A stretch of DNA of 64,000 nt from Dehalococcoidia bacterium (GCA_965207225.1 CBDBLV010000005.1:352001-416000), one strand, 5' to 3'. Numbered from the stretch's first letter, positions 30,232 to 61,480 are shown. The notes: generated by a model not told the origin, from the letters alone. Made by a program: numbers and translations.

Positions 30232-30522
30232 GTGCAGCATCGGGTCCGCAGACCCATTCAGTTCGACTTCCCGGCCGACTTTCCCGAGCGTTTGGCACTC
30301 TTCAAGGAGGCCAGTGGGCTGAGCTGGAGGGAACTGGCCCGGCTCCTGGGGGTCAGGCCCTACCGGCTCTGGCAGTGGCGGAAAAGGAGGGTGGTGCCCA
30401 ACGCCACCCACCTCTTCCTGCTGTTGACTGTGGCCGAGGCGATGGGGCTGCGGGACGGGGCCCTGATGTGTGCCGAGCGGGACCTGCCCGCGGGTGGGGA
30501 CCTGGGGGACCCTCAGCGATGA
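30232..30522 (+). CDS. XRE-family HTH protein (start approximate)
   Basis: FPADFPERLALFKEASGLSWRELARLLGV...WQWRKRRVVP. Confidence 0.75.
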   Translation: MQHRVRRPIQFDFPADFPERLALFKEASGLSWRELARLLGVRPYRLWQWRKRRVVPNATHLFLLLTVAEAMGLRDGALMCAERDLPAGGDLGDPQR

Positions 30523-30983
30523 TGTGTCTGATGGAAATCGGCCCTGCCGGTCTGAGCAAAAGAGCCTATCCCTGTGGAATTGAGAATGAGGTTGAACTCG
30601 TCGTCTGTCTGATTTTTCTTGTCGGGCCTTTGCTGCACTCGAATGGTCAATCGTCCATCTCCCGCAACGGCCAGAGTGGGGTTTAGGATATCTCGGCTTT
30701 CCAAAAGGCTCTGTACCGAGAAGTCTAGTGTCGGGAGGGTGCGCAGCAGGTGGTGCCGCTCCAGGGAAATGCCTGAAATGATCAACTCGCGACCATGTCC
30801 ACCTTCATCGAAGACACCGACAGCCCCATACCGGGCGTTGGTCAGCGAATGGGCCCCTTCCACGACCTCCTGAAGCACGGTGTCGAGGTCCCAACTCTCG
30901 GTGATGCGACGGTTGACCTCGCTTAGCTTGGCAAGCCGAGTGCGCAACTTGTCAATCTCCCGGACTTCCAAGTCATTCCACAT
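30513..30983 (-). pseudogene. truncated copy of the GAF sensor kinase
   Basis: RRITESWDLDTVLQEVVEGAHSLTNARYGAVGVFDE matches 59090..; similarity ends near 30730 and is followed by unrelated sequence. Confidence 0.85.
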
Positions 30984-31039
30984 AATTGACGGTTTCGCTT
31001 CTAATCTATTGCACGGAGCTGCGATGGTACGTGAAGAGC

Positions 31040-31110
31040 TTTCACAAAAGTACTCTAAGTTTTCACGGGCTCTTTCACGTAAAAGGGGTTGATTTTCACG
31101 CCTATTTCAC
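31040..31110. promoter_or_regulatory. five-box TTTCAC array (OmpR-type binding sites), copy 1
   Basis: Boxes at 31040, 31061, 31073, 31094, 31105 (spacing 21/12/21/11). Confidence 0.75.
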
Positions 31111-31158
31111 AGCCCTCCTCTATGTTGAACGACATCAAGATTCCAGGAGGGGCGTCAG

Positions 31159-31242
31159 ATGAATAGATTGTTAGTCAGAGACCAACGTATCCGGCCAAGG
31201 CCATGTACCTATCTAGGCTCCTGCAAGACGAAGATTGATTAA
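31159..31242 (+). CDS. putative 27-aa peptide MNRLLVRDQRIRPRPCTYLGSCKTKID
   Basis: AGGAGG RBS; overlaps the hairpin GGCTCCTGCAA...TTGCAGGAGCC (31216-31278). Confidence 0.35.
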   Translation: MNRLLVRDQRIRPRPCTYLGSCKTKID

Positions 31243-31333
31243 TGATCGTGTTACTTTGCTTCTCGCTTTGCAGGAGCCGAACAACAAAAGATGAAGGACA
31301 TAGGCAAATGAGGCTTCAAATACCTAGTCGAAA

Positions 31334-32197
31334 ATGAGAAGTCCAATGAGTACAACGATCAAGCTCACCGCAATTCTGACACTAGCAATAGCTGTGATCT
31401 TGGGTTTCCATGTGGTAACCGCGCAGATGGTCGCAGCTGAAGGCCCTGATGAACCTCGGCTCCAAGGAGAGGGTGTAATTACCTATAATCCGCCTAATAG
31501 ACCCGCCTTGATGGACCCTGTTCGCAGTGTCGTTCAGGGCACTCGCGTGGATGGTGAATGCGTCATCACTTACACTGTATCGATAAACTCCAATGAACCA
31601 TCCAAAGTCACTCGTACGGTGGCCTTCAATCCGATCACATGTGAAGAACTTATTGAACAAGGAACATTGAGTCAGCAAGAGACCGAGGTGGATGGGTCCC
31701 CTACGAAGGAAACCACACCGAAGGACGAAGGAATTGGCACAGATTCTCAAGGCGGAGCAACTTATTCTGCGTCCTCTCTCCCAAGAAAGACCAAAACTTT
31801 CAAGGCAACTTGGGAGGATCCCGTTCACCTTGATGTGAATTGGCAAAAGACCAAAATGACATGGGAGTATGACAGCGAGAATAACATTGTTAATTACTTG
31901 AGCGGTCTGTGCACATGGTACTGGCTAACCACCACGGGGTGGACGGCAGACCCGGACGAGGAATGTAAACAATACTCGCAGGCTAACGGGTCTCGGCACG
32001 TAGTTGAGGCGAGTAGAGGATTCACAAACAAAAACTTTCCCTGCTTTATTCTGGGTAATCCCAAGGTAGGCGCGAAAACTCGGATGGACAATCAAAAGAT
32101 TACAGCCAATGCCGATGGAACATACTCTGGCTCAGTTGACTTCTCAAAGAGCGGAGACTGCGCTTGGTTGCTACACAATGAAACAAGCTGGGAATAG
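31334..32197 (+). CDS. secreted two-domain Cys-containing protein
   Basis: Signal peptide, N-domain with 2 Cys, acidic/Thr linker, C-domain with 4 Cys. Confidence 0.8.
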   Translation: MRSPMSTTIKLTAILTLAIAVILGFHVVTAQMVAAEGPDEPRLQGEGVITYNPPNRPALMDPVRSVVQGTRVDGECVITYTVSINSNEPSKVTRTVAFNPITCEELIEQGTLSQQETEVDGSPTKETTPKDEGIGTDSQGGATYSASSLPRKTKTFKATWEDPVHLDVNWQKTKMTWEYDSENNIVNYLSGLCTWYWLTTTGWTADPDEECKQYSQANGSRHVVEASRGFTNKNFPCFILGNPKVGAKTRMDNQKITANADGTYSGSVDFSKSGDCAWLLHNETSWE

Positions 32198-32303
32198 CCT
32201 GGAATTCGTGATGAGTCACAGAATTCGAACGGCATCCGGGGCACAATGGTTAACGTTATTGTTGTCGGCCATAAAAATCTAAAGGTCTCGATAGGCATGC
32301 ACA

Positions 32304-32355
32304 GCAGGGGTAGTCGTAAGAAATAATGTAAGTATCCTGCTACGACTACCCCTGC
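32304..32355. terminator. 15-bp stem-loop between the secreted gene and its partner
   Basis: GCAGGGGTAGTCGTA...TACGACTACCCCTGC. Confidence 0.6.
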
Positions 32356-32378
32356 ACCTTACTCCGTGACCAGTTGTC

Positions 32379-32783
32379 ATGTGCATTAGGTTGAGGAGAA
32401 CGACTGTCGGGATGGAGCTCAGTGAATTGTGGGCCTCGAACATTATCAAATATAGTGCACCTATCGTTACAACGGTCGTGCTCGTCTTGACCGTTTTGTT
32501 CGTCTCCTATTACCTAATGCTGTGGCCATTCCAACCTAGATTGGAAGTGGATGATCCCGTTATCTCCGAATGGCTGCAGCAAGACGGAGTTGTCATTTAT
32601 CGCACTGGTGAAAAATTGGCCGACAGTCGCATGTACATCACTGACGGTGAGAGAATCGAAGGTGGTTGTAGCTGGCAAGTTAGTGTTTCCGGGTCTGATG
32701 ACTATGTAATCATCAGCAGAGAACTGGCCACAAACCACATTACATGTGAAACCTTGGTAGAAGAGGGCAGGCGGCTTGATTAG
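32379..32783 (+). CDS. membrane-anchored protein homologous to the N-domain of 31334..32197
   Basis: One TM helix; G.R..G.C...R..A.N.ITCE.L.E.G shared with the upstream protein; start may be 32412. Confidence 0.75.
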   Translation: MCIRLRRTTVGMELSELWASNIIKYSAPIVTTVVLVLTVLFVSYYLMLWPFQPRLEVDDPVISEWLQQDGVVIYRTGEKLADSRMYITDGERIEGGCSWQVSVSGSDDYVIISRELATNHITCETLVEEGRRLD

Positions 32784-33229
32784 CCTATAGGGCAGGAGTG
32801 GATTATGCGGTTATTGCTCATATTGCCAGTCCATATGTTGGCCTGCACCTCCGGCTCTGGGTCCTGGGAGGCGCGTGCAGAACTGTACCAATACCTTGAC
32901 AGGGTGCGACTATGCACGCAGAGAACAGGGCGCAATTCGAGCATTTGACAACTGTTACCTTTGCCCCGACAGCCTCTCGAGTGAATACTGGCCCCACTGT
33001 GCCCACTCCTACGAATGAGGAGTTGAAACAATACAGCTTTTCTTAGTTTGCGCCCAGGCTGGCCGATCTCTCGCGGACTAGCCGTTTCCTCCAGGGACAA
33101 CTTGACGAGCTAAATGCTATGGCGGTACCGGATGAACATAGAGACCTTCACGGTGACCTAATTGCCATGTGGGAAGCGGACATCGCTTGGGTGGAGGATT
33201 GGCTGGAGCCAACGCAGGACTACGTTGCG

Positions 33230-34657: not shown

Positions 34658-36679
34658 TCATGTTGCAATCTCGTCCAGGGCGGATAGCGGCCTTCTGTCC
34701 AGGGAGTAAGGAGGCGGAAGTATCCATGCCTCCCCGAGGATTCCATGTTTCGCAAGGGTCTCTGTGTTGGATGTGATGATGGGGACTCCGTCCACCGTGT
34801 CGGAAACGTCGAGAAAGGCGTTTTCGTTTTCGGGGGACTCGAAGATGAAGAGCACCCGGGGCAGTAGTCCCTCGTGGTCTTGCTCGGCCCATCCGGTGGC
34901 GAAGTAGCGTCGGTAGGACCGTAGTCTGGAGTGCGCACGCTTCGGGGTCGTGGCCCTCCTCTCGAACTCCAGCAGGTGGGGATGCCACCGTCCTTTGTAT
35001 TCCAGGGTGAAGGAGACGTCGGGGTGGATGACGTAGGTGGTCCAGTCAAAGCGGTAGCCGATGCTGGATCGGGACGTGGGAAGCAGGTCCCACATATCAT
35101 AGTCGTGGGAGCGGGCGACCTCGGCGGACAGGGCGGAGACGAAGTCGATGACGCCGGCATGGTGTTGCATCTGGGAGGCCAGGGCTCGCAATGCGGTTCC
35201 GCCGTAGGCGGTGGGGTTGGAGTACAAAGGCTGTGCACTCCATTGGTCGAGGGTCAGTCCCACGGCGGCACGGTCCCTGCGGGCCAGGTAAGTCAGTCCC
35301 TCGTCGGTGAGCATGTGCAGGGGCCCGTCAGTCCGCACGAGGCCGTGCTGGGCCAGGGAATGGAGCACCTGGTTGACACGGCGGAGGGTGACCCCTCCCA
35401 TGAGTCCTGCCAGCTGCTCCCGGGTGGACAGGGTCCAGGCTGAGAGCAGGTCGAGGGCGTCCTTCTCGGCGCCGCTCAGCTGCACCGAGAGGGCCGGCGT
35501 GAGTTGCTGGGTGGGATCCGGCATGGTGGCCAGCACGTCGGAGGGATAGAGTTCGGCAGAATTCGGATACGAGCTTTTGCCGAGGAAGGAGTAGGACGTG
35601 TCCAGCAGTTGCTCCGCCCAGGCCAGTATGCCGGTAAGGGAGGCGTCGGCGCCGATGCGCACGGGAGGGTCATTGCCCAGGCCGCTCCCGCACTGCTGCC
35701 AAACGACTCCTTTGCGGCCTCCGGCCAGAAGCTTCCCCTCCGTAGTCACGAAGGTTCTGTGGTGCTCCCACGGGTCGCCCAATGAGCGGAAGGCCCTCCG
35801 GGTGGCCTGGTCAGCGTGGGTCACGACAAGGGTGACGAAGGGAGTCTCGCTGCTGTCCAGCCTCTCGATGCTCCTGAGGCGGTAGCGGAGCCTGGAGGTG
35901 GGCAGCGTTGGACCCTGCCGCACCACGCCGATGCTGCGGCCCCCGGAGAGGGTGAGGAGCATGTCGTAGGGGCCGTTGCGGTAGTGGTCCACCCTCACGG
36001 AGTCATCGTGCGGGTCGGCGTCGGCGACCATGGCGGCGACGCGGTGGAGCACGGAAACGGCGTCCAGACGCTCAGCAAGCAGCCGAAACCACTGCTTCGA
36101 CACCGGGTACGACCGAAGCATGTGCTCCTCACCCTTGGTGGCCATGCCTCCGGCGGTCACACCCTTGGCCGTGGGAAAGTACCGGCGCTGCGGACGAGTC
36201 CCCAGGACGCTCAGGTGGTGCAGTACTGAATCCACGAGGCCCCGCTCGGTCAGCCTCTTCAGCCGGTCTCGGAGCGTCGAGGCAGGGATTCGCCCGAAGC
36301 TGGACAGCTCCTCCACGGTGGCCAGGGGCGTGGCGCAAAGCAGCAGGAGCGCCTGCTCAAGGCCCTGGCGCAAGTGACGGAGGGCAGGGTCCGGCCGCAG
36401 GCCCTCCAGGTCGATGATGAGCTTCATAGTGGCGGCTTCGACCGCCCGCACACTGCCGCTGAAGGAGCTCAGGACAGCGTTGGGTACGGCACGCCCTCCG
36501 TAACGCCGTTTGAGGAACCGCCACAGGCTGTGGCGGGACACACCGAGGGTTTCGGCTGTCTTACCTTGTCCATGTAGCCGGACGTGGGCGCGCACGTAGT
36601 CCCGGACCGCTCCCTCTAGGTGCGGTCCGGTCTGTGTGGAACCGTTTAACGGTCGTGCCCGTTGCTCTGCGAGGACCAA
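34658..36679 (-). CDS. Replic_Relax/MOBC-like relaxase paralog with an extra N-terminal HTH
   Basis: HPDVSF...LLEFERRA; two wHTH halves; PVSKQWFRLLAERLDA and ARRDRAAV shared with 1713..3338. Confidence 0.75.
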   Translation of the reverse strand: MVLAEQRARPLNGSTQTGPHLEGAVRDYVRAHVRLHGQGKTAETLGVSRHSLWRFLKRRYGGRAVPNAVLSSFSGSVRAVEAATMKLIIDLEGLRPDPALRHLRQGLEQALLLLCATPLATVEELSSFGRIPASTLRDRLKRLTERGLVDSVLHHLSVLGTRPQRRYFPTAKGVTAGGMATKGEEHMLRSYPVSKQWFRLLAERLDAVSVLHRVAAMVADADPHDDSVRVDHYRNGPYDMLLTLSGGRSIGVVRQGPTLPTSRLRYRLRSIERLDSSETPFVTLVVTHADQATRRAFRSLGDPWEHHRTFVTTEGKLLAGGRKGVVWQQCGSGLGNDPPVRIGADASLTGILAWAEQLLDTSYSFLGKSSYPNSAELYPSDVLATMPDPTQQLTPALSVQLSGAEKDALDLLSAWTLSTREQLAGLMGGVTLRRVNQVLHSLAQHGLVRTDGPLHMLTDEGLTYLARRDRAAVGLTLDQWSAQPLYSNPTAYGGTALRALASQMQHHAGVIDFVSALSAEVARSHDYDMWDLLPTSRSSIGYRFDWTTYVIHPDVSFTLEYKGRWHPHLLEFERRATTPKRAHSRLRSYRRYFATGWAEQDHEGLLPRVLFIFESPENENAFLDVSDTVDGVPIITSNTETLAKHGILGEAWILPPPYSLDRRPLSALDEIAT

Positions 36680-46894: not shown

Positions 46895-46898
46895 ACGC

Positions 46899-52696: not shown

Positions 52697-52939
52697 ACTT
52701 CGACATGCCCCCTTGTGGATGGTCAACCTGGCTGTAGTCCACATCCAAGTTCCTCCTTGAATACCTCTGAAGATTCCAATCAGTCCCCAAGCGTGATCGG
52801 ACTCTGTACCAGAAAAGGTAACACCCATTCCTTGCTAACCAGGAGCCTATACCTGACTCAAAGCGAAGGTCGGTGTTCACACAGCTTCGGTAGCCCCATC
52901 TAACCGGATTCGAACAAATCTTGTTCCTTATTTGAATGT

Positions 52940-53250
52940 CGTGGTGCTACTTAGATAGCAACCTCCCACCGAAAGGTTCGCAGTATAGTACGTGACGGCC
53001 ATCAATTCGTATCTGAGACCGTCGGGGACTCGAACTTTTCTGAACGTTGAACAAGAGCGGAAGGTTAAGATGGTAGCCGCGGGATGCTATGGCACCAACA
53101 CAACAAGGGGAGGAAACCGAGATCGAAATGTGCTTGAACTGCCGGACCATGTACGCAGTCCTCTTGCGTTGCTGGCCTAATGGGCTATTCCGTGTGGGCG
53201 TTTCTCTAATTCCGGCAATAATAACGAGCCTTAGCCCTCCCTCAACTGAC
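52940..53250. repeat. diverged ~300-bp direct repeat, copy C, containing an att-like motif
   Basis: 30 bp identical to copy D (53013-53042 = 61632-61661); GTTC-N17-GGCCATCA at 52976-53004; further matching patches CAACACAACA and TTAGCC.TCCCT. Confidence 0.8.
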
Positions 53251-53536
53251 CGAATCATCGTGGCGACAGTGGGGGCCAAACACCAGGCCGTCGTGTCCCA
53301 CCAGTCTTGATAAAACAACTGTCAACCTGACCCTCACTTTAGCGCTATAGGTCTGCTTGGGAACTGAGCCAGCTTAATTTCAGGTGGTCCTCCTGCAAGT
53401 TTGTGTAATAGGTATACGCACTGAGCAAGACAGCCTTGAGCGGAATCGGGAAGATTGAATGCACTTAGGCCCATGGCGTCGGTGACGGTGAGCTTGAAGG
53501 TCAGGCCGTCCGGGGCCCTCTACGGGATGAGGTGCA

Positions 53537-53995
53537 TTAAAAGCGGCACCCTGCGTCTTTTAACACCTGGCGATCGGGCTCTGGTAGAGCGCCAATTGCC
53601 GCGACAACTACCACCCGCTTCTCCTTAACGTCAGTGTCCGCCATAAACAATGCCTCATCAACCTTCAAGGCGCGGTCTTGTTCCTCAGCAAATGTCAGCA
53701 GGGTCTCGTAATAGTCCACTGCGGCATCACGAAACTCTCGCATGCCTTGCGGTGGATCATAGCGCAGCAGTTGAATTGCCCACGTTAGATCGCCGGCTAA
53801 GTTGGGCCAACCTAGAGCAGAGTATTCCGGCCTTTCAGGGCCGCAGACATCATCGGCAAACCACATCATCTCTTCCTCGCGACTCATGGGTTCTACCCAA
53901 TCGGGGGTTGGCTCAGGGCTGCTGCACGCTGCAAGGGTAATTGGTAATGCCAAGACGCCCAGCGATAAGAATGTTAAACGAGTCACTTGCGTCAT
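53537..53995 (-). CDS. putative lipoprotein
   Basis: Lipobox-like TLAAC; helical acidic body; start approximate. Confidence 0.65.
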   Translation of the reverse strand: MTQVTRLTFLSLGVLALPITLAACSSPEPTPDWVEPMSREEEMMWFADDVCGPERPEYSALGWPNLAGDLTWAIQLLRYDPPQGMREFRDAAVDYYETLLTFAEEQDRALKVDEALFMADTDVKEKRVVVVAAIGALPEPDRQVLKDAGCRF

Positions 53996-54002
53996 TTCCG
54001 CC

Positions 54003-54041
54003 GGCCCGGGGGCTGCTCCCATGTGGAGCAGCCCCCGGGCC
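54003..54041. terminator. perfect 17-bp stem-loop between the secreted gene and the lipoprotein
   Basis: GGCCCGGGGGCTGCTCC-CATGT-GGAGCAGCCCCCGGGCC. Confidence 0.7.
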
Positions 54042-54048
54042 ACTATTC

Positions 54049-54729
54049 CTACCATGTTATCCAGTACACCGTGTAGGTGTCGCCGAATATCTGCCACAGG
54101 TCGGCCCCATCGCCGTTTCGGAAGCGATGGTCTCCCCAGACGCCGTATTTGTGTCCTGGTACGGCGCCACGAGCTCGGCTGATAACCCTAGCGGGGGTCA
54201 CACCGCACGGCTCGATTTCGTCCGTTGCCGTCCAGAAGATTCTGTCTGAGTCAGGCCATACGCGCTTCGACCGGCCCTTGACCCAACAGTTGTCTATCTG
54301 GCCGCCGTATGTGACCCTTGTGCCTGTCACAGGCTGGATCCAATTGTAGCATTCTTCGGTTCTCCCGGCGTAAAAACCGGCATACCCCTCGGCGGTGCCA
54401 CCGCCCTGTTCCGAGGGAATAGCCTTCGTCCAGTACGTTAGCGTTAGCTCCTGCTGCTCCAAGCAGTCGCCGCCACTGTCCGCAGCGGTGTCGCCGTCAT
54501 CTGGAGTCGTGTGTTGCGGCGTCTTCCATCCGGCCTCGTATTCAGCCAGAGTAGGAATTGGCGGCAGAGGAGGCGGCACGAAATCGGATGGCAGTTCGAT
54601 GAACCCGTCGGCATCGACAGGCGGGGCGGTTTCGGGCTCTTCTGCATGCGCGGGCATGGCAAATAGGACCGCCAAGAGCGTGACGACCGCTAATACAGTG
54701 ACCAGTGCTGCAAATTTCTTGAGCTTCAT
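54049..54729 (-). CDS. secreted protein with Pro/acidic pro-region and Cys-containing C-domain
   Basis: Signal peptide ending AHA-E; GGGAGG RBS. Confidence 0.8.
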   Translation of the reverse strand: MKLKKFAALVTVLAVVTLLAVLFAMPAHAEEPETAPPVDADGFIELPSDFVPPPLPPIPTLAEYEAGWKTPQHTTPDDGDTAADSGGDCLEQQELTLTYWTKAIPSEQGGGTAEGYAGFYAGRTEECYNWIQPVTGTRVTYGGQIDNCWVKGRSKRVWPDSDRIFWTATDEIEPCGVTPARVISRARGAVPGHKYGVWGDHRFRNGDGADLWQIFGDTYTVYWITW

Positions 54730-54782
54730 AATGAACCTCCCAAAGTATCGGGTGTTAAGGGACGTTTAAGACTTGGGAGCAT
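54726..54782 (-). CDS. putative 18-aa leader peptide MLPSLKRPLTPDTLGGSL
   Basis: AAGGAGG RBS; stop overlaps the downstream start (ATGA). Confidence 0.35.
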   Translation of the reverse strand: MLPSLKRPLTPDTLGGSL

Positions 54783-54899
54783 TTCCGCCTCCTTTCATAA
54801 CGTTACCCGGCCAAGAGGACATCGACCATTGTCCGACTGCGCGGTTAGGCCAAGGTGGGGTACAAAGGGAAAGGGAAAAGGGGTGGTCGTGGTTGTCCG

Positions 54900-54965
54900 T
54901 TATGGACAGGTGCATGCGACGGGCGTTACCACAATGACCGGGCGGGGGAATGCCGTCTTGTTCAT
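54900..54965 (-). CDS. putative 21-aa peptide MNKTAFPRPVIVVTPVACTCP
   Basis: TAAGGAGG RBS 6 nt before the ATG. Confidence 0.4.
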   Translation of the reverse strand: MNKTAFPRPVIVVTPVACTCP

Positions 54966-55102
54966 TTCGGACCTCCTTATCATGTCGGGTCGGAGTCCTA
55001 TGATCCTTCGGGGCGTCGGTCAGGGGAGTGGTGGCCCTGTATCAACTTAAACACTTAGCACGTTGTCGGTTTCGCCGAGTGCCAACATCGTAGGAGAGGC
55101 TT

Positions 55103-55174
55103 GTGAAATAGCCGTGAAAAGCAACCCTATTTCCGTGAAAGAATCCGCAAAAAATTTGGGTAGGTTCCGTGAAT
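55103..55174. promoter_or_regulatory. five-box GTGAAA array, copy 2 (two boxes degenerate)
   Basis: Boxes at 55103, 55114, 55135, 55147 (GCAAAA), 55169 (GTGAAT). Confidence 0.7.
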
Positions 55175-55230
55175 GCTTTTCACGGAACTTCCCGGATAGG
55201 TGTCATCGAATCGTAACAAGGCGGATATCT

Positions 55231-55374
55231 ATGACGAGGGAAACGGCAGCCCAAGAGGTCGAAAGGCAGCGGGACCGCCCCGCCACCTTCAGCGAGGTCG
55301 GCCGTCGCATCACCGAGAGTTGGGACTTCGATACCGGGCTTCAGGAAGTCGTGGAGGGGGTCCGTTCAGCCTAG
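55231..55374 (+). pseudogene. short remnant of the GAF sensor kinase
   Basis: EVERQRDR..SEVGRRITESWDFDTGLQEVVEG then stop. Confidence 0.85.
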
Positions 55375-55560
55375 TGTGACGTCGGTCCTAACGGAGAACC
55401 TCTGCGAAGGCTGCTTCGAGGCGGGCGCCGCGGGAGATAGGAGAATTGTGGGCGGCACAGTGGCCCAAGACGTGGTTTTGCAAGGCGCGGGCCGCTCGAA
55501 CTTCGTGATGTGTAAGTTGCACGCAGGCGCGTGCGACAACCTCATTCAGCACCATACCCA
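55371..55560 (-). mobile_element. possible IS630-like transposase C-terminal fragment and IS end
   Basis: Minus frame ...VRAARALQNHVLGHCAAHNSP... ending near ...GTCACACTAG; weak resemblance only. Confidence 0.3.
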
Positions 55561-55720
55561 AATTCCGGGTAATGTCTCAGTTTTAGGGTTAGGAGATTGA
55601 AAGGTGTGCCGCGTACCCATAAAGGTCACTAGAGGCGGTGCCTCTTGGATTCACGGGAGTTTGGGACGCTCGCTTCAGCAACGTTCCAAAGTTGCCGCTC
55701 CCTTTCTCTGACACCAATTT

Positions 55721-55751
55721 AGGCCCTGGGGGTTACGCGACCCCAGGGCCT
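55721..55751. terminator. stem-loop downstream of the protease operon
   Basis: AGGCCCTGGGG...CCCCAGGGCCT. Confidence 0.6.
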
Positions 55752-55809
55752 CTTCAAATTTCTCTATAGTGACGTTCACGTTCTCGCGTTCCGACACTCT
55801 CCGAAGCCG

Positions 55810-56496
55810 CTAGTCAGTGTTGCCCGTCGGCCCCACTTCACCCGACTCGGGCTCGATAGCTCGCCTGATCTCGGACATTGCAAACGTCATCTCCCCAAAC
55901 ATGTCTTCTCTCGTGCCCCTTGGTTTGAGAATAACGGAGTCGTCTACCCTCCCTGTCGGCCCTACCTCACCGATGCCTCCCACAACATCGAACACCCCAT
56001 TATCCATGCTGACTCTAACGTAGTAATCGTCCACCGCGGTTATGCCCGGTGCATCCGCATCGTTGAGAAACAATAGGACCTGGTGCCCATTCAGCAAGGT
56101 TGTACTGTCCTCATCTATATCTACCCTATCCACATCTAGAGCTCCCACTACTATGGTTTTCACATCTTGGCCAAGCTCACCGCGTAGCACCTCGGTCACC
56201 GTTATTTCATAGAACACCACCGGAATGCCCCAGACTGCTCCCTCCGGAGGGTTTTCTTCTCCGTAATCGACGTCTCGGGCCACGACCTCTCCCATTGTTC
56301 CGACAATAACCAGATCAGACACGCTTGACAGCCCTTCTAGAGAGGAGTAGACCGGCATGTCTGCCTCCATAGCGATTCTGGGGCTCTCGACATCTCCCCG
56401 TGAAACGAACCAGATGGAAATAACCAGCAACGATGCTAGCATCGCCGCCATCACCGGCAGCAAAGTTCGGTTCTTCTGGTTGCCAAGCGCATTCAA
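55810..56496 (-). CDS. membrane-anchored extracellular protein
   Basis: N-terminal TM; YSSLEGL...SDLVIVGT...VTEVLRG...QVLLFL pattern. Confidence 0.75.
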   Translation of the reverse strand: MNALGNQKNRTLLPVMAAMLASLLVISIWFVSRGDVESPRIAMEADMPVYSSLEGLSSVSDLVIVGTMGEVVARDVDYGEENPPEGAVWGIPVVFYEITVTEVLRGELGQDVKTIVVGALDVDRVDIDEDSTTLLNGHQVLLFLNDADAPGITAVDDYYVRVSMDNGVFDVVGGIGEVGPTGRVDDSVILKPRGTREDMFGEMTFAMSEIRRAIEPESGEVGPTGNTD

Positions 56497-56610: not shown

Positions 56611-57474
56611 TTATTCGTGCCCTTCATGATCTTCCCTCCCTGTCCCCTGCCCGAGAATGCGTATGCTCCTGAATACGGAGACAGCAGTTCGCTGCTGCTC
56701 CGGCGTCAGGTCTTCGGCCACAATGTGGAGGTGGGGACCACCCGACCTGTGGAAGAAGGCAGCGGTGTACCCGGCCCCGGGTTCCATGGAAATGAGCAAA
56801 CTCGCTCTGACGTCACCTATGTCTTCATAGCCCATGACGTAGGTGTACTCTGGATCATCGGAAGGAGACCGGCTCCAAGAACGCCCGCCGAAATCAAAGG
56901 CCAGCCGGACTCCCTCGCCGGCAATTTCGCCTTTGTAGTACTTGATGTAATCGATCTCCTTGAGCACATTCAGTTCCCACCCGGGAGGTAGGCGCAGAGA
57001 GAATCCCGTCTGGCTCGGCCCTTCTGGAACCTCCACGACCCTCCAGTCCGGCGAGGGTTGTGCGTCTGCAACAGTATGCGGGATCAGTCCTATGATGCTC
57101 ACTGATTTCCCAGTGAGCTTGTCAACGATGGCCCTGTCTCCCAGAGGATCTTGAAGATGGACCTCGACGCCTTCGATGCAGTCATCCTCGCTCTGCCGGA
57201 AATCCGAGTCAACTTTGACTTTAACCTGCACTTCGTCATCCGTCTCACGCAAAAGCGATACGACCGGGTTTCTGTGGCAGGAGTCGGCGACAGTGAGTTC
57301 GAGCCTCTGAGGAGAATATAACCCCGCTTCAACTACCCTTGCTTCCCTTTGAGCCACACTTGCTTCGTTGCGCGACGTACACCCGCCGAGCAAGAACAAA
57401 GATGCGAAGACCAACAGCCCAATTACTACGACTGCTCCAACAATGCGTTGTCTACGGCTGGACCGGTCAACCAT
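56611..57474 (-). CDS. putative lipoprotein (ORF open up to 57594)
   Basis: Hydrophobic stretch ending LLGGC; two extracellular domains. Confidence 0.7.
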   Translation of the reverse strand: MVDRSSRRQRIVGAVVVIGLLVFASLFLLGGCTSRNEASVAQREARVVEAGLYSPQRLELTVADSCHRNPVVSLLRETDDEVQVKVKVDSDFRQSEDDCIEGVEVHLQDPLGDRAIVDKLTGKSVSIIGLIPHTVADAQPSPDWRVVEVPEGPSQTGFSLRLPPGWELNVLKEIDYIKYYKGEIAGEGVRLAFDFGGRSWSRSPSDDPEYTYVMGYEDIGDVRASLLISMEPGAGYTAAFFHRSGGPHLHIVAEDLTPEQQRTAVSVFRSIRILGQGTGREDHEGHE

Positions 57475-57522
57475 AACGTCTCTTAAACTAGCTGGCTGTG
57501 CCTTGTTGTGGGCCAATGTTAC

Positions 57523-57571
57523 GCGTGGCCCCGTGTGTGCCCCATTCAGTATGGCTTGCACAGGGCCACGC
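57523..57571. terminator. stem-loop between the protease and the lipoprotein gene
   Basis: GCGTGGCCC.GTG...CAC.GGGCCACGC. Confidence 0.55.
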
Positions 57572-57580
57572 ATCCCATGT

Positions 57581-58870
57581 TCAGTCGGACGCAACGTAAA
57601 CGCCCTTTAAGGCACTGGGCATGCGATCTGCCCGTGAGAAAACATCTCGCTTAATCGACGAGGTCGGGGGGTCATACACAAAGCCTTGATGAAGACCATA
57701 TGCCGAGTTGCCTAAGTACACAGGTCCGCCACTGTCACCATCCGCAGACAGACGCCCGGCCATTTGCACGAGATTGCACCTATGTCTGCTGCAGACGTTA
57801 AGCTTACGGACTCTTTGGCAGTCTCTGTGGCTCGTCAGACCGTTTCGGCAAAGCAACTGGCCCACTTCAGGAGATGCCACGAAAGATACATCTCTCAAGT
57901 TTACTTCGGTTGCGGAAGCACTGCCAGCATAGAAGTCGTCGGTGTGGGTCCCGGTTCCCGTATGCCACTGGAAGTCGCCGTATGTTCCCTCATACTCTAG
58001 CATCAAAGTCAGACTTATCCCGTCATCAGATAGATCGTCGGGACAATGTCCAGCAGTGGAAATGCCTCTCACACCTGTTGAGGTCTTCGTACCGAATCCC
58101 GATGTGCAATCAGGTCTACGACCTTCAATAAGGTCTTCACCACCACGATGTTCAGTTCTGCTATCGTTCCCTCCCAAATCTGAGCGTTCCGAGTGGGCCA
58201 CGGAGGTTGTAATGTTGTTGACAATGTCCGCCCTCGTTGCATCAGTGAGGTTCTTCACTGCGATGGCCTGGAGACCATCCAAAGTGGAGTTGGCAGATGT
58301 GCGTTCCAACACCACAATTGTGCTTATCTGGCCACTCGCGAAGTCGAAAGAAGTGTTGGCGTCGAGGACTTCTGTAGTATTGAGCACTGCATAGTGGGCC
58401 GCTTCGATCGCTCGTTGGAGCTCCGCTTCAGTGAATCCCTTGCCGGTGCGCACTTCCACTGCGACGCCACTGTGACTGCTCTTGAACGTGTTGATTATGG
58501 CAAGCGCCGACCTCGGGGCGCTGCCTGCGAAAGCGACCCATGCGTTATCGGCGTCTACAATCTCCGCTCCCGTGAAAGATTCAGGATGCGCTTCTCGAAT
58601 TTTCGAGACCGCCAAGGCGAAGTTGTCGTTCCATGCATAACGATCAATAACGGTCTGGAGAGACAAGCCAGATTGGTTGGCGAAGAACTGCAAGTCCTCT
58701 AACTCAGCGGCGCTAATAGTATCGTTGATTCCCGCTGGCGCCACATCCGGCAAATTAGAGGTCCTGTTTCCAGACACCTGAGCGTGCGCTACGCCCACGC
58801 TCGCAGTCACTAGGGCGATGATCATTAACAAAGCCACGAACATTACTTTTATGTCGGTTCTGTCCCTCAT
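57581..58870 (-). CDS. secreted S1-family (alpha-lytic/streptogrisin-like) serine protease with pro-region
   Basis: Signal peptide; CTSGF, TAGHC, GDFQW, GDSGGP. Confidence 0.9.
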   Translation of the reverse strand: MRDRTDIKVMFVALLMIIALVTASVGVAHAQVSGNRTSNLPDVAPAGINDTISAAELEDLQFFANQSGLSLQTVIDRYAWNDNFALAVSKIREAHPESFTGAEIVDADNAWVAFAGSAPRSALAIINTFKSSHSGVAVEVRTGKGFTEAELQRAIEAAHYAVLNTTEVLDANTSFDFASGQISTIVVLERTSANSTLDGLQAIAVKNLTDATRADIVNNITTSVAHSERSDLGGNDSRTEHRGGEDLIEGRRPDCTSGFGTKTSTGVRGISTAGHCPDDLSDDGISLTLMLEYEGTYGDFQWHTGTGTHTDDFYAGSASATEVNLRDVSFVASPEVGQLLCRNGLTSHRDCQRVRKLNVCSRHRCNLVQMAGRLSADGDSGGPVYLGNSAYGLHQGFVYDPPTSSIKRDVFSRADRMPSALKGVYVASD

Positions 58871-58962
58871 GATGCCTTCTCCTCTTTATCATTCCGTAGC
58901 CTTTACGCCACCCAATAGAGTCCTCCCTTCAACTGTGATGCTCGCTATGATGAACCTCCCGT

Positions 58963-59033
58963 GTGAAATATCAGTGAAAATCAACCCAATTGCCGTGAAA
59001 GCATGCGTGAAAATTTGAGATGTTTCCATGAAA
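58963..59033. promoter_or_regulatory. five-box GTGAAA array, copy 3
   Basis: Boxes at 58963, 58974, 58995, 59007, 59028 (ATGAAA); spacing 11/21/12/21. Confidence 0.75.
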
Positions 59034-59089
59034 ACCCTTCACAGAACGGCCTCTTAACGTATGATAGAGTCGAAACGAGGCGGTCATCT

Positions 59090-61480
59090 ATGAGAGACAA
59101 TTCGGAAGCACGAGAGATCGAAAGGCAGCGGGCGCGCCTTGCCATCCTGAGCCGCGTCAGCCGCCGCATCACTGAGAGCTGGGACCTGGACACGGTACTT
59201 CAGGAGGTGGTTGACGGGGCCCGTTCGCTGACCGACGCCCGCTATGGTGCAGTCGGCGTCTTCGATGAGGACGGGCGTGTTCGCCAGTTCATCACTTCGG
59301 GCATTACCCAAGAACAGCGCCGCCTGCTGGGCAGTCTGCCCAAGGGCCTGGGAATCCTCGGCTACCTGAACGAGATACAGGAGCCATTGCGGCTTGCGGA
59401 CCTCTCCGAACATTGCCGATCCGTTGGCTTCCCGGAGAACCACCCACCCATGAAGACTTTCCTGGGCGCCCCCATCCGGCGCCTGGGCAAGCCTGTCGGC
59501 AACATATACCTCACGGAGAAGGAGGGCGGGGAGTTCTCGGGAGAAGACGAAGAAACACTGGTTATGTTTGCGTCCCAGGCTGCCATCGCCATCAGCAACG
59601 CAATACGCCATGAGGATGAGCGGCAATCAAGGAACGCCTTGGAGACGGAGAGGCGTCGGCTGGTGGCCCTGGTGGAGTCCTCGCCGGTAGGCGTGATGGT
59701 GGTCGACGCGGCGACCAGGACTTTCGCCTCGGTCAACCAGGAGGCGGAGCGGATCCTCGGCATGTCGCCCGAGCCGGGATCAACGCTTGTAGACTATCAT
59801 CAGGTGGCGATCTATCGGAGGACGGATGGGAAGAGGTATGAGGATCACGACCGACCTCTGGCGAGGGCGCTGGACCGCGGTGAGGCCGTGCGAGCTGAGG
59901 AGATACTCGTAGATCTCCCGGGCGGACGAAAGGTGACCACCTTGGTGAATGCAACCCCCATCTATTCTGACGACGGGGAAATCGTCTCAGCTATCGCCGT
60001 TGTCCAGGATATGACGCCATTGGAGGAGATGGAACGCCTGCGCAACGAGTTCCTAGCCATGGTAAGCCATGAACTGAGGACTCCCCTGACCACCATCAAG
60101 GGGTGCACGGGTGTAGTGTTGGGCAGCACTGAGCCGATGGACATCTCCGAATTGCTCCAGTACTTCCGGATGATTGATGAGCAGTCCGACCACCTGCGCG
60201 GACTAGTCAACAACTTGCTAGATATGACCCGAATAGAGGCTGGGGCCTTGTCGGTAACTCCCAAACCTGCTGAGGTGGCGTCCCTGGTTAGCGAGGCAAA
60301 GACCGCGTTTTTGCGTAGGGGAGCGCGTCACACGGTAGACGTGGACCTCGACTCCGACCTGCCCATGATCTCAGCGGATGGGCGTCGCATCACCCAAGTC
60401 TTGGACAACCTGCTGTCCAATGCATCGAAATATTCGCCGGAGTTCTCCAGGATCAGGATAACCGGATCAAGAGAGGGGTTTTTCGTAGTCATCTCCGTAA
60501 CGGATGAGGGAAGAGGAATACCTCCTGAACAATTGGCCAGGCTGTTCAAAAAGTTCTCTCGTCTGGACGACAGGGAAACGAAGAAGAAGGTTGCAGGGGA
60601 GGGGCTGGGACTGGCGATCTGCAGAGGCATAGTCGAAGCGCATGGTGGTCGCATCTGGGCCGAAAGCGAAGGAGAGGGCAGCGGCACTCGGATATCCTTT
60701 GCGATTCCTGAAGCCGTCGAAACTTCCCTGGAGGCGGGCACTCCTGCGTTGGTATCGGCACAGGGCGAGCAAAAGAGAATCCTGGCCGTAGACGACGAAC
60801 CTCAGGTGCTCTGGCTCCTACGGAACATTCTATCCAAACAAGGATATAAATTTCTTGGTGCAGCCAACGCCGACGAGATGAAGCACCTGCTGGACACTGA
60901 GCAACCCCATCTTGTCCTGCTCGACCTGATGTTGCCCGGTACCAGTGGGTTCGAGCTGATGGAACGAATTCGCGAGGTTTCGAAAGCTCCAATCATCTTC
61001 CTGTCCGCCAACGACCAGGAGGAGAACGTGGTGAAGGCCCTTGAGATGGGAGCCGATGACTACATGATCAAGCCGTTCTCCTCCACCGAACTGTTGGCCA
61101 GAATCGAATCATCCCTTCGGAAGCAAAGACCGGTCGATACGCCTGTTCCCATTCCGTTCTATCACGTGGATGACTTGCGCATAGACTACGCGCAACGGAG
61201 CGTCTCCCTATCCGGAAATCCCGTGCATCTGTCCGCGACGGAATACAAACTTCTTTCCGAACTCTCGACTAACGCTGGTCGCACCCTCACACAATACCAA
61301 ATACTGCAGCGGGTCTGGGGAAAGACATACTCGACTGAAAGTGAGTTGCTTCGCGCAACAGTCAAAAACCTGCGCCGCAAGCTCGGGGACGATGCTAACA
61401 ATCCAAAGTACATTTTCACCGAGCCCCGCGTTGGCTATCGGATGCCGAGTTCTGTGAAGCAAAAGGAGGGCCAAAAATGA
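59090..61480 (+). CDS. fused GAF-PAS-histidine kinase-receiver-OmpR wHTH protein
   Basis: GAF (GFPENHPPMKTFLGAPI), PAS, SHELRTPL, NLLSNASKY, DEGRGI, GLGLAI, VDDEP, LDLMLPG, KPFS, YIFTEPRVGY; no TM helix; start chosen by comparison with paralogs. Confidence 0.92.
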   Translation: MRDNSEAREIERQRARLAILSRVSRRITESWDLDTVLQEVVDGARSLTDARYGAVGVFDEDGRVRQFITSGITQEQRRLLGSLPKGLGILGYLNEIQEPLRLADLSEHCRSVGFPENHPPMKTFLGAPIRRLGKPVGNIYLTEKEGGEFSGEDEETLVMFASQAAIAISNAIRHEDERQSRNALETERRRLVALVESSPVGVMVVDAATRTFASVNQEAERILGMSPEPGSTLVDYHQVAIYRRTDGKRYEDHDRPLARALDRGEAVRAEEILVDLPGGRKVTTLVNATPIYSDDGEIVSAIAVVQDMTPLEEMERLRNEFLAMVSHELRTPLTTIKGCTGVVLGSTEPMDISELLQYFRMIDEQSDHLRGLVNNLLDMTRIEAGALSVTPKPAEVASLVSEAKTAFLRRGARHTVDVDLDSDLPMISADGRRITQVLDNLLSNASKYSPEFSRIRITGSREGFFVVISVTDEGRGIPPEQLARLFKKFSRLDDRETKKKVAGEGLGLAICRGIVEAHGGRIWAESEGEGSGTRISFAIPEAVETSLEAGTPALVSAQGEQKRILAVDDEPQVLWLLRNILSKQGYKFLGAANADEMKHLLDTEQPHLVLLDLMLPGTSGFELMERIREVSKAPIIFLSANDQEENVVKALEMGADDYMIKPFSSTELLARIESSLRKQRPVDTPVPIPFYHVDDLRIDYAQRSVSLSGNPVHLSATEYKLLSELSTNAGRTLTQYQILQRVWGKTYSTESELLRATVKNLRRKLGDDANNPKYIFTEPRVGYRMPSSVKQKEGQK

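What the first reader, a model, noticed from the sequence alone, without database searches (positions are those of the whole stretch)
30513..61480. Thrice-repeated regulatory platform driving swappable secreted-protein / partner pairs
Seen at 30.5-32.8, 53.5-55.4 and 55.8-61.5 kb: sensor gene start, five GTGAAA boxes spaced 11/21/12/21(22), a divergent signal-peptide precursor, a strong hairpin after its stop, then a lipoprotein or TM partner. The three cargos look unrelated (two Cys-containing unknowns and an S1 protease). Two sensors are truncated but their boxes persist. Inference: a polymorphic effector-immunity or host-interaction regulon in which one intact fused sensor controls orphan modules in trans and the hairpin sets effector:partner ratio.
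Basis: partly seen in the sequence, partly recalled or inferred. Interest (0 to 1): 0.85.

Follow-up and report, generated by a model that had tools for sequence, protein, structure and literature searches.

The report
Fused sensor-regulator promoter platform with orphan copies
A bacterium of the class Dehalococcoidia carries five copies of a two-way promoter built from short repeats that most likely bind a one-protein sensor-kinase-regulator; three copies have lost their sensor gene, and each copy faces a different secreted-protein gene.

Summary
Three arrays of five GTGAAA-type boxes, spaced 11/21/12/21-22, lie at 31.0, 55.1 and 59.0 kb. Each sits between the start of a sensor gene and a divergent gene for a secreted protein. 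Two sensors are stumps of 84 and 46 codons.

The intact gene encodes a soluble GAF-PAS-kinase-receiver-OmpR-type protein from a large Dehalococcoidia paralogue family.

The tandem box pair occurs only five times in the 4.03 Mb genome, about 0.4 expected by chance. Boxes are far better conserved than spacers. A sister paralogue clade keeps the same geometry with ATCAAA boxes and three changed recognition-helix residues. A -10-like hexamer lies 10 nt beyond box 1 on the cargo strand in 15 of 17 arrays, which is the pho-box geometry.

Best reading: a two-way, self-regulated promoter platform. The adjacent cargo differs between platforms and was replaced once between conserved flanks.

Control of the orphan platforms in trans is plausible but unproven. 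Remnant dN/dS of 0.23-0.42 points to recent truncation, and two other orphans lack nearby cargo.

I found no support for an effector-immunity or host-interaction reading.

The parts
30732..30983 (-). Module 1 sensor remnant: codons 1-84 of a paralogous fused sensor. The open frame runs on to 30513 in unrelated sequence.
   Evidence: tblastn 66.7% over residues 1-84; blastn 72.8% to 58962-59333; dN/dS 0.23-0.26 against intact copies
31031..31110 (-). Module 1 box array: five exact GTGAAA boxes (5' ends at 31110, 31099, 31078, 31066, 31045) and the palindrome arm TTCAC
31121..31126 (+). -10-like hexamer TATGTT on the cargo strand, 10 nt beyond box 1
31334..32197 (+). Cargo 1: 287-aa secreted protein of unknown fold. 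A conserved Cys-containing N-domain is followed by a beta-rich C-domain.
   Evidence: 7 relatives at 51-57% identity to the query by BLASTP; pLDDT 41
32197..32233 (+). Modest hairpin after the cargo 1 stop (-13.8 kcal/mol), no U tract
32379..32783 (+). Partner 1: a single-anchor membrane protein whose C-terminal part is a copy of the cargo 1 N-domain
   Evidence: BLASTP 35% identity, E 2e-7; profile match E 1.1e-6
53537..53995 (-). Partner 2: lipoprotein-like (LAAC lipobox). Its domain recurs at the C-terminus of the 403-aa lipoprotein beside orphan array L001b.
   Evidence: (49% identity, E 7e-44)
54002..54042 (-). Perfect 18-bp hairpin (5-nt loop) between the cargo 2 stop and the partner 2 ribosome-binding site (-45.1 kcal/mol); unique in the genome
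54049..54729 (-). Cargo 2: 226-aa secreted Cys-containing protein of unknown fold
   Evidence: 2 relatives; pLDDT 34
55087..55092 (-). -10-like hexamer TACGAT on the cargo strand, 10 nt beyond box 1
55103..55183 (+). Module 2 box array: GTGAAA x3, then GCAAAA and GTGAAT, plus the palindrome arm. This is the most decayed of the arrays.
55231..55374 (+). Module 2 sensor remnant: codons 1-46, then a stop
   Evidence: A 6.8-kb short-read contig with 0 differences bridges the junction in 4 runs of one sample.
55810..56496 (-). Third gene of the module 3 operon: 228-aa anchored protein
   Evidence: 83.6% DNA identity to L001
56611..57594 (-). Partner 3: lipoprotein-like (LGGC), probable start near 57474. 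Its N-domain is shared with the partners at L001a and G008c.
57521..57573 (-). 15-bp hairpin after the protease stop (-34.1 kcal/mol), kept at the orthologous place in G008
57581..58870 (-). Cargo 3: secreted S1 (streptogrisin / alpha-lytic type) serine protease precursor with a pro-region
   Evidence: orthologue in G008 at 59% identity
58947..58952 (-). -10-like hexamer CATCAT on the cargo strand, 10 nt beyond box 1
58963..59043 (+). Module 3 box array: GTGAAA x4, ATGAAA, and the palindrome arm TTCACA, which doubles as a -35 hexamer
59060..59070 (+). Sensor-side -10: TATGAT, overlapping the extended -10 TGATAGAGT
59090..61480 (+). Intact fused sensor-regulator, 796 aa: GAF-PAS-HisKA-HATPase_c-REC-Trans_reg_C, with no membrane segment

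Best explanation
Each module is a copy of one ancestral unit. The unit has a gene for a soluble, single-polypeptide two-component system (GAF-PAS sensor, histidine kinase, receiver, OmpR/PhoB-type winged helix) and a roughly 110-bp two-way promoter platform in front of it.

Proposed mechanism (inferred). A cytoplasmic signal activates the kinase and the receiver is phosphorylated within the protein or its dimer. The winged-helix domains then bind head-to-tail to the GTGAAA direct repeats. Boxes 1-2 and boxes 3-4 form two tandem sites with an 11-12 bp period. Box 5 lies in a small palindrome.

Boxes 1-2 lie 10 nt from a -10 hexamer that points at the divergent secreted-protein operon, so they take the place of its -35, as a pho box does. 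Boxes 3-5 lie over the -35 of an extended -10 promoter that points at the sensor gene, giving autoregulation.

The platform is the conserved part. The cargo beyond its -10 differs from copy to copy and has been exchanged.

In this genome five platforms share one box type, but only two keep a sensor gene. The three orphans in the genome (two of them in the window) can therefore still be read only by those two regulators, if they are read at all.

Shown: the anatomy, its conservation, its rarity, the co-variation of boxes with paralogue clade, and the cargo replacement. Inferred: binding, the direction of control (activation), control in trans, and the nature of the signal.
For: 1. Specificity. 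The tandem pair occurs only at the five platforms in 4.03 Mb, about 0.4 expected. Genome-wide, the only hexamers repeated four times at 11/21/11-12 spacing are GTGAAA, ATCAAA with its reverse complement, and frames of one unrelated 11-bp tandem repeat.

2. Conservation. Within the array, 23 of 30 box columns are invariant across 8 arrays from two species, against 8 of 42 spacer columns (Fisher 1e-6; the copies are related, so this overstates significance).

3. Link to the sensor.
- Arrays with the same geometry lie upstream of sensor orthologues or paralogues in 6 further Dehalococcoidia assemblies and at 3 more places in this genome.
- The ATCAAA arrays keep the spacer backbone (CAACCC ... 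TTTCC), but all four boxes differ at the same two positions.
- Their 4 proteins carry Q-LLRAT-M/L-R-N in the predicted recognition helix, where the 7 (G/A)TGAAA proteins carry E/D-LLRAT-V/I-K-N.
- Other paralogues carry other repeats with an 11-bp period.

4. Two-way promoter.
- TAnnnT lies at offset 10 (once at 9) beyond box 1 on the cargo strand in 15 of 17 arrays. The other two have CATCAT and AATAAT at that offset.
- This matches the geometry quoted for E. coli PhoB: tandem repeats with an 11-bp period, 10 bp upstream of TAN3T (passage in PMC1906773).
- On the sensor side, TTCACA-16-TATGAT scores 10 of 12. TGnTAnnnT is present in 10 of 12 arrays with an apparently intact sensor.

5. Cargo exchange.
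- Homology between modules stops 0-20 nt beyond box 1.
- Between the window's module 3 and its 92%-identical paralogue, both flanks match (88% and 83.6%). The protease segment 57317-58942 is replaced there by unrelated 267-aa and 152-aa genes.
- Among 17 platforms the first cargo genes are unrelated, except for two orthologous pairs.

6. Differential decay. In 4 of 4 orphans the TG of the sensor-side extended -10 is gone, while the cargo-side hexamer is kept.

7. Family habit. In 6 of 10 paralogue loci of this genome, the nearest divergent ORF starts with a signal-peptide-like N-terminus, judged by eye.
Against: - No binding, transcript or expression data exist. No RNA run holds the stretch.
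- All promoter elements are consensus matches.
- The box/recognition-helix co-variation maps to a single split between two sister clades. It is therefore one evolutionary event and is confounded with descent.
- All the arrays are homologous, so counts across them are not independent.
- Distances from box 1 to the cargo ATG are 223 and 373 nt in the two orphan modules, against 81-93 nt in the intact ones. Their leaders are long.
- Remnant dN/dS of 0.23-0.42 at dS 0.5-0.8 means the sensors were lost late. Box conservation in orphans does not prove selection after that loss.
- The module 2 array already has two degenerate boxes. Its box-versus-spacer contrast is weak (p 0.02-0.29).
- Orphan arrays L001b and G008a have no cargo ORF within about 0.9 kb or more.
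- Repression rather than activation is equally compatible with boxes lying over -35 elements.
Confidence: 0.65

Rival explanations
1. The orphan platforms are inert wreckage. The sensor-cargo units duplicated, rearrangements in a mobile-element-rich region cut off two sensors, and the arrays simply have not yet decayed. Cargo 1 and cargo 2 would then be expressed from other promoters or hardly at all. The intact modules would still be self-regulated units, as in the best explanation.
For: - Remnant dN/dS of 0.23-0.42 points to late truncation.
- The module 2 array has 2 of 5 boxes degenerate and a weak box/spacer contrast.
- Orphans L001b and G008a have no adjacent cargo.
- Module 1 abuts a large serine recombinase and a DDE transposase. 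A relaxase-like gene and a type III restriction-modification system lie between modules 1 and 2.
Against: - Module 1 keeps 29 of 30 box bases against intact arrays in 3 of 4 comparisons (27 of 30 in the fourth), but only 21-23 of 41-42 spacer bases.
- All four orphans keep the cargo-side hexamer yet have lost the TG of the sensor-side extended -10.
- Cargo 1 and cargo 2 are intact ORFs with conserved relatives elsewhere.
Confidence: 0.3
2. This is the first reader's reading: a polymorphic effector-immunity (or host-interaction) system. The secreted cargo is a toxin or effector, the downstream lipoprotein or membrane protein is its cognate immunity partner, and the hairpin sets their ratio.
For: - Cargo is variable beside conserved flanks.
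- Every cargo gene is followed by an envelope-anchored protein.
- In G008 the partner carries a copy of the protease pro-region. In alpha-lytic-type proteases the pro-region is known to inhibit the mature enzyme (this point is recalled, not tested here).
- Hairpins are strong in 2 of 3 modules.
Against: - Pfam, NCBIfam and PADLOC gave no toxin, immunity or defence family for 7 window proteins and 2 paralogous ones.
- I saw no secretion-system or delivery genes in the ORF lists of the modules. This was not searched for systematically.
- Partners share modular domains with cargo and with unrelated lipoproteins of another genome (G116). This looks like shuffling of surface-protein domains.
- Cargo structure models are too poor to support any fold claim.
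Confidence: 0.08
3. The boxes do not belong to the fused regulator. They would be sites for another DNA-binding protein, iterons or ends of a mobile element, or part of a structured leader RNA.
For: - The arrays lie in a low-GC region rich in mobile elements.
- Homology between copies ends close to box 1.
Against: - Every array lies in a fixed orientation 75-130 nt upstream of a sensor start or its remnant. This holds at 5 of 5 places in this genome and at the orthologues in other genomes.
- The box sequence changes together with the sensor clade.
- Rfam has no match in the window.
- The predicted transcription starts lie outside the boxes on both sides, so the boxes would not be transcribed.
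- The replication- and relaxase-like genes are not adjacent to any array.
Confidence: 0.05

Closest known systems
Bacteroides hybrid two-component systems (HTCS) (PMC11253607; search listing and start of abstract only)
   Same: The sensor kinase, receiver and DNA-binding output are in one polypeptide. The paralogue family is expanded. Each copy sits beside the locus it is thought to control.
   Different: HTCS are membrane proteins, as that abstract states. Their periplasmic sensor and AraC-type output domain are recalled from my own knowledge, not taken from the text seen. The protein here is soluble (GAF-PAS, no hydrophobic segment) with an OmpR/PhoB winged helix. Its neighbours are secreted proteases and unknown secreted proteins, not polysaccharide-utilisation loci. 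It lies in another phylum (Chloroflexota).
PhoB / pho-box promoters and autoregulated OmpR/PhoB-family regulators (passage in PMC1906773; PhoP direct-repeat units in Streptomyces, PMC2275107, abstract only)
   Same: Tandem direct repeats with an 11-bp period lie 10 bp upstream of a TAnnnT -10, in place of a -35. The regulator gene is itself preceded by its own sites.
   Different: One array serves two divergent promoters. There are two tandem pairs plus a palindromic fifth box. The regulator is fused to its kinase. The sites are confined to five places, three of them without a regulator gene.
Alpha-lytic protease / streptogrisin-type S1 proteases with an N-terminal pro-region (PDB 1hpg, 2sfa, 1cso)
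   Same: Cargo 3 has the His and Ser motifs, a roughly 190-residue catalytic domain aligned to these chains, and a long N-terminal pro-region.
   Different: Similarity is low (E 2.5e-4) and there is no Pfam hit at 0.01. In the related genome G008, a second copy of the pro-region is fused to the membrane-anchored partner protein.
   Same: It concerns the same family of fused cytoplasmic sensor-kinase-regulators in Dehalococcoidia, back-to-back with secreted-protein genes on a mobile element.
   Different: The few lines returned mention no box arrays, no change of box with paralogue, no orphan platforms and no cargo replacement. These are added here.

Membership tests
OmpR/PhoB-family response regulator | Receiver domain with acceptor Asp, plus a C-terminal winged-helix Trans_reg_C domain | tested here: met
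   Response_reg 3.5e-28 and Trans_reg_C 4e-20. The motifs DDEPQ, LVLLDLMLPG and KPF are seen in the translation.
Histidine kinase (HisKA type) | HisKA dimerisation domain with an H-box, plus HATPase_c | tested here: met
   HisKA 1.3e-16 and HATPase_c 1.2e-29; SHELRTPL is present.
Bacteroides-type HTCS | Kinase, receiver and DNA-binding domain in one polypeptide | tested here: met
   One 796-aa ORF holds all the domains.
Bacteroides-type HTCS | Membrane-spanning protein with a periplasmic sensor domain | tested here: not met
   The maximum 19-residue Kyte-Doolittle mean is 1.52, so there is no clear membrane segment. The sensor region is GAF plus PAS.
Bacteroides-type HTCS | AraC-type helix-turn-helix output (recalled as the defining output) | tested here: not met
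   The output domain is Trans_reg_C, and no AraC hit appears in the Pfam table.
Pho-box-type activator site | Two or more tandem direct repeats with an 11-bp period | tested here: met
   Boxes 1-2 are spaced 11 and boxes 3-4 are spaced 11-12 in all 8 GTGAAA-type arrays and in the ATCAAA arrays.
Pho-box-type activator site | Site placed 10 bp upstream of a TAnnnT -10, in place of a -35 | tested here: met
   Seen in 15 of 17 arrays on the cargo strand; 2 have CATCAT or AATAAT at that offset. Sequence level only.
Pho-box-type activator site | Bound by the cognate regulator, with phosphorylation-dependent activation | not testable with these tools
   No binding or expression data; no RNA run holds the stretch.
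Polymorphic toxin / effector-immunity cassette | Recognisable toxin or effector domain in the secreted protein | tested here: not met
   Pfam found 0 families for the six module cargo and partner proteins it scanned, plus the 228-aa third gene. NCBIfam gave only sub-threshold hits. PADLOC found 0 families in 9 proteins. The AlphaFold models are unusable (pLDDT 41 and 34).
Polymorphic toxin / effector-immunity cassette | Cognate immunity protein that binds and neutralises the effector | not tested
   I sent no complex prediction. The monomer models were too poor, and this report does not claim binding.
S1 (chymotrypsin-fold) serine peptidase, for cargo 3 | Catalytic His and Ser motifs in the right order | tested here: met
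   TAGHC and GDSGGP align with the same motifs of 1hpg.
S1 (chymotrypsin-fold) serine peptidase, for cargo 3 | Significant match to a curated family model | tested here: inconclusive
   No Pfam hit at E 0.01. NCBIfam Rv1815 family scores 18.7 bits against a cut-off of 175. PDB phmmer gives E 2.5e-4.
Intrinsic terminator, for the intercistronic hairpins | GC-rich stem followed by a U tract | tested here: not met
   The stems are present, but no T run follows any of the three. The terminator scan did not list them.

The most novel reading that the evidence does not exclude
The platform is a portable, two-way 'socket', and the regulon grows by the death of sensors. Sensor-platform-cargo units duplicate. 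Copies that change their boxes together with their recognition helix (GTGAAA to ATCAAA) become insulated new circuits. Copies that keep the same boxes make their sensors redundant, and those sensors are lost. The orphan platforms they leave behind stay wired in trans to the surviving regulators. New secreted-protein genes are slotted in at a fixed junction just beyond the cargo-side -10. In this way one cytoplasmic signal comes to command a changing, strain-specific set of secreted proteins. The same pattern appears a second time in this genome, in the ATCAAA clade: pseudo-sensor C4:823324-823890 has an intact array and three exported-protein genes, next to the intact paralogue C4:827679.
Probability: 0.35. 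Interest if true: 0.7.

Novelty: new variant of a known kind. Interest (0 to 1): 0.55.

Why it matters
Dehalococcoidia of this kind are uncultured, and next to nothing is known about how they regulate genes.

This locus offers a complete hypothesis that can be tested from sequence alone. It names the regulator, its likely operator (two tandem pairs plus a palindrome), two promoters, and a five-site regulon.

It also offers a natural specificity switch. The boxes change from GTGAAA to ATCAAA together with three recognition-helix residues. That could be tested by swapping residues in vitro, and it bears on how duplicated two-component systems become insulated from one another.

If the orphan platforms are live, they show a simple way for a regulon to grow and for accessory secreted proteins to be plugged into an existing signal.

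If they are dead, the locus is still a clean, dated example of how such circuits decay.

Tried and rejected
- **Structure of cargo 1 and cargo 2.** AlphaFold2 on alignments of 8 and 3 sequences gave mean pLDDT 40.8 and 33.7. I ran no fold search because the matches would be meaningless.
- **ESM Atlas.** It returned only unnamed 'secreted protein' clusters at 0.90 and 0.85, with low recognition values. These are leads only.
- **Cargo homologues in relatives.** Cargo 1 and cargo 2 were found whole only in this genome among the 12 genomes of the order. Only partial hits turned up elsewhere (G001, G008). With the cargo 1 profile, 3 of 401 class genomes matched, and the other two only over the N-domain. 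I therefore could not test whether these cargos sit beside intact sensors elsewhere.
- **Expression.** No RNA holder is listed for 57500-60500.
- **Read laying.** Only contigs of 4 runs from one sample were available, probably the source sample. They confirm contiguity across 52800-56325 and 57046-59239. The short-sided joints come from paralogues or other organisms and were ignored.
- **Other scans.** Rfam and tRNA scans of the window found nothing. PADLOC found nothing.
- **Hairpins as a repeat family.** Rejected: the stems are unique in the genome.
- **Insertion of a mobile element into the sensor genes.** Rejected as a simple explanation: no 3' sensor parts lie elsewhere in the window.
- **Complex prediction of cargo with partner.** Not sent. 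The monomer models are poor, and this report does not claim binding.
- **Literature.** Searches found no description of this family or of these boxes. One paper looked at (PMC8612252, passages) was irrelevant. Supplements were not consulted.

Full report
**What is there**

The window lies in a 4.03 Mb, 5-contig assembly (60.5% GC). Its closest relatives in public records are titled 'Dehalococcoidia bacterium' MAGs. GC falls from about 67% to about 55% at roughly 20 kb.

The low-GC part holds several mobile-element genes:
- a DDE transposase (24507-26069)
- a large serine recombinase (27072-28709)
- a relaxase-like gene (34658-36679)
- a type III restriction-modification pair (43805-49724)

The three modules of the finding lie in this part.

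**Check of the observation**

GTGAAA clusters on one strand at 31040-31110 (5 exact), 55103-55140 (3 exact) and 58963-59012 (4 exact). The sequence shows degenerate boxes at the remaining expected places. The spacing is 11/21/12/21-22, and the fifth box is one arm of a small palindrome.

In the whole genome such clusters occur at five places only. The tandem pair [GA]TGAAA-N5-[GA]TGAAA occurs five times, against about 0.4 expected.

The gene after the third array starts at 59090. It encodes a 796-aa protein with GAF, PAS, HisKA, HATPase_c, receiver and Trans_reg_C domains. The phospho-acceptor motifs are intact, and there is no clear membrane segment.

After the other two arrays only codons 1-84 and 1-46 remain. 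No 3' parts lie elsewhere in the window. A 6.8-kb short-read contig with no differences bridges the module 2 junction in four runs of one sample, which is probably the source sample.

The divergent ORFs begin with signal-peptide-like sequences, judged by eye. BLASTP finds no similarity among them.

One is an S1 protease precursor: it has TAGHC and GDSGGP motifs and matches 1hpg at E 2.5e-4. Pfam found nothing for it at E 0.01.

The hairpins after the cargo stops are strong in modules 2 and 3 (-45.1 and -34.1 kcal/mol) and modest in module 1 (-13.8 kcal/mol). None has a U tract, and they are not a repeat family. The module 3 hairpin is kept at the orthologous place in a congener.

The observation therefore stands, with two corrections. 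The module 1 hairpin is weak. The genome has two intact sensors of this box type, the second 92% identical and outside the window.

**What the array is**

Three lines of comparison point to operator sites of the fused regulator itself.

*First, conservation.* A sequence profile of eight arrays finds them in 2 of 12 genomes of the taxonomic family: 5 in this genome and 3 in congener G008. Within the arrays, 23 of 30 box columns are invariant, against 8 of 42 spacer columns.

*Second, the link to the sensor.* The sensor belongs to a large paralogue family. It has 12 matches in this genome and 10 in G008, and 7 of 12 family genomes have a match at E 1e-40.

Upstream of the nearest other paralogues (C3:68077, C4:827679 and the pseudogene C4:823324) lies an array with the same 11/21/11 spacing. 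It has the same spacer backbone, but every box reads ATCAAA.

Public MAG loci show further variants upstream of orthologues:
- ATCAAA in 2 loci
- ATGAAA in 2 loci
- mixed or degenerate boxes in 2 loci
- GTGTYAC in 1 locus

The predicted recognition helix reads E/D-LLRAT-V/I-K-N in the 7 (G/A)TGAAA proteins and Q-LLRAT-M/L-R-N in the 4 ATCAAA proteins. The two groups are sister clades (100/100 and 92/93 support). This is therefore one event: consistent with co-evolution, but not a statistical proof. More distant paralogues carry other repeats with an 11-bp period.

*Third, placement.* On the cargo strand a TAnnnT hexamer lies exactly 10 nt beyond box 1 in 14 of 17 arrays and 9 nt beyond it in one more. 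The other two have CATCAT and AATAAT at offset 10, and the 10 nt in between vary freely. This is the geometry quoted for E. coli PhoB: tandem repeats with an 11-bp period, 10 bp upstream of TAN3T (PMC1906773, passage read).

On the sensor side, the right arm of the box 5 palindrome is a -35 hexamer (TTCACA-16-TATGAT, 10 of 12). An extended -10 (TGnTAnnnT) is present in 10 of 12 arrays that have an apparently intact sensor.

I therefore read the roughly 110 bp as a two-way promoter. Boxes 1-2 serve the cargo operon, and boxes 3-5 serve the sensor gene (autoregulation). Binding, the sign of control and the signal are all inferred.

**Swappable cargo**

Homology between modules begins 0-20 nt beyond box 1 and runs into the sensor gene. 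The cargo side is unrelated.

The clearest case is module 3 against its 92% paralogue at C5:1455346. Sensor plus array match at 88%, and the partner genes match at 83.6%. The 1.6 kb in between (the protease and the partner's N-terminus, 57317-58942) is replaced there by unrelated 267-aa and 152-aa secreted-protein genes. G008 has the protease at the orthologous platform (59% identity), so the protease is probably the older state.

Across 17 platforms, the first cargo genes fall into unrelated groups, apart from the protease pair and one other orthologous pair. Two platforms have none.

Cargo 1 and cargo 2 are rare. They have 7 and 2 relatives among 5.8 billion proteins. Among 12 genomes of the order and 401 of the class, they are present whole only in this genome.

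**Partners**

Partner 1 repeats the N-domain of cargo 1.

Partner 2's domain recurs at the end of a 403-aa lipoprotein beside orphan array L001b.

Partner 3 shares an N-domain with the partners at the two other protease-type loci. In G008 that partner also carries a copy of the protease pro-region (49-51% identity).

A lipoprotein of an unrelated genome (G116) joins the C-domain of partner 3 to the N-domain of cargo 1. The C-domain likeness was judged by eye; the N-domain match comes from the profile.

This looks like shuffling of envelope-protein modules. Nothing marks these proteins as toxin-immunity pairs.

**Are the orphans alive?**

*For:*
- All five platforms share one box type that occurs nowhere else in the genome.
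- Module 1 keeps 29 of 30 box bases in 3 of 4 comparisons with intact arrays (27 of 30 in the fourth), against 21-23 of 41-42 spacer bases.
- All four orphans keep the cargo-side hexamer but have lost the TG of the sensor-side extended -10 (0 of 4, against 10 of 12 in intact arrays). Related copies overstate this contrast.
- The same pattern of pseudo-sensor, intact array and exported-protein genes recurs in the ATCAAA clade.

*Against:*
- The remnants differ from intact copies with dN/dS 0.23-0.42 at dS 0.5-0.8, compared with 0.12-0.17 for three intact pairs. The nearly identical G008b/G008c pair (dS 0.05) gives 0.44, which is uninformative. The paralogues are therefore old, but the truncations are late, and kept boxes may simply be inherited.
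- The module 2 array has two degenerate boxes and a weak contrast.
- Orphans L001b and G008a have no cargo ORF nearby.
- The leaders of cargo 1 and cargo 2 would be 200-350 nt long.

I put control in trans at roughly even odds, given that the platform model itself holds.

**Comparison with what is known**

In design this works like a Bacteroides hybrid two-component system: one polypeptide, an expanded family, and each copy beside its target locus (PMC11253607, listing and abstract). It is not a member of that family, because it is soluble and has an OmpR-type rather than an AraC-type output.

Its operator layout is that of pho boxes.

New here are the box arrays, their switch of sequence between sister clades, the two-way promoter geometry, the orphan platforms and the cargo replacement.

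My searches found no paper on this family or these boxes. Supplements were not consulted.

**Verdict**

This is a real, non-random and well-delimited regulatory structure. It is a new variant of known kinds (fused two-component system, pho-box-like operator), with an unusual evolutionary pattern. The effector-immunity and host-interaction readings have no support.

Noticed in passing
G000 C3:255285-255333, C4:458779-458827, C5:603979-604038, C5:1120175-1120223: An unrelated family of 11-bp tandem repeats (TTCAATCAAAG, 3-5 units), each preceded by the same roughly 30-nt leader (AGGCGTCATTCAATCAAACCAGCTACGAG). It lies at four places in the genome and turned up in the hexamer-spacing scan.
   Followed up: no
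window 52946-53113 and 61564-61733; L001 19198-19294: A repeat of about 170 bp at 75% identity lies just downstream of the intact sensor, again beside module 2, and also near the second locus. It has no tRNA or Rfam match. A short-read contig that leaves the stretch at 61600 maps on to 53013 through this repeat (table 5c).
   Followed up: partly
window 33200-53300: A block between modules 1 and 2 holds a Replic_Relax-like gene (34658-36679), a 1507-aa ORF with no Pfam match (37388-41911), and a type III restriction-modification pair (ResIII helicase 43805-46894, N6_N4 methylase 46899-49724). It is probably an integrated mobile element.
   Followed up: partly
window 17153-30522: This stretch holds a giant Calx-beta surface protein (1654 aa, 17153-22117), a cadherin-like 560-aa protein, a DDE transposase (24507-26069), a large serine recombinase (27072-28709) and HTH proteins. 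They lie directly left of the module 1 sensor remnant. GC drops from about 67% to about 55% near 20 kb.
   Followed up: partly
L010 10975-12018 (G008): The membrane-anchored partner downstream of the orthologous S1 protease carries, in its C-terminal half, a second copy of the protease pro-region (49-51% identity). This could be an anchored foldase or inhibitor.
   Followed up: no
L124 1126-2391 and L122 1126-2130 (G116): A lipoprotein of a distant Dehalococcoidia genome joins the C-domain of the window's partner 3 to the N-domain of cargo 1 and a further C-terminal domain. The partner 3 likeness was judged by eye; the cargo 1 N-domain match comes from the profile search (E 4e-30). Two near-identical copies exist, one beside a transposase fragment.
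   Followed up: partly
G000 C5:1490239-1496000 (L033): A more distant sensor paralogue, with ATGAC-type repeats at an 11-bp period, sits back-to-back with ORFs that look like a bacteriocin-type export pair: a HlyD-like 297-aa protein and a 733-aa ABC transporter with an N-terminal Cys-peptidase-like motif. This was judged by eye and not tested.
   Followed up: no
G000 C4:823324-830080 (L032): In the ATCAAA clade, a pseudo-sensor (2 TAG stops, residues 9-204 only) with an intact array and three exported-protein genes lies 4 kb from an intact paralogue that has its own array. This mirrors modules 2 and 3 of the window.
   Followed up: partly
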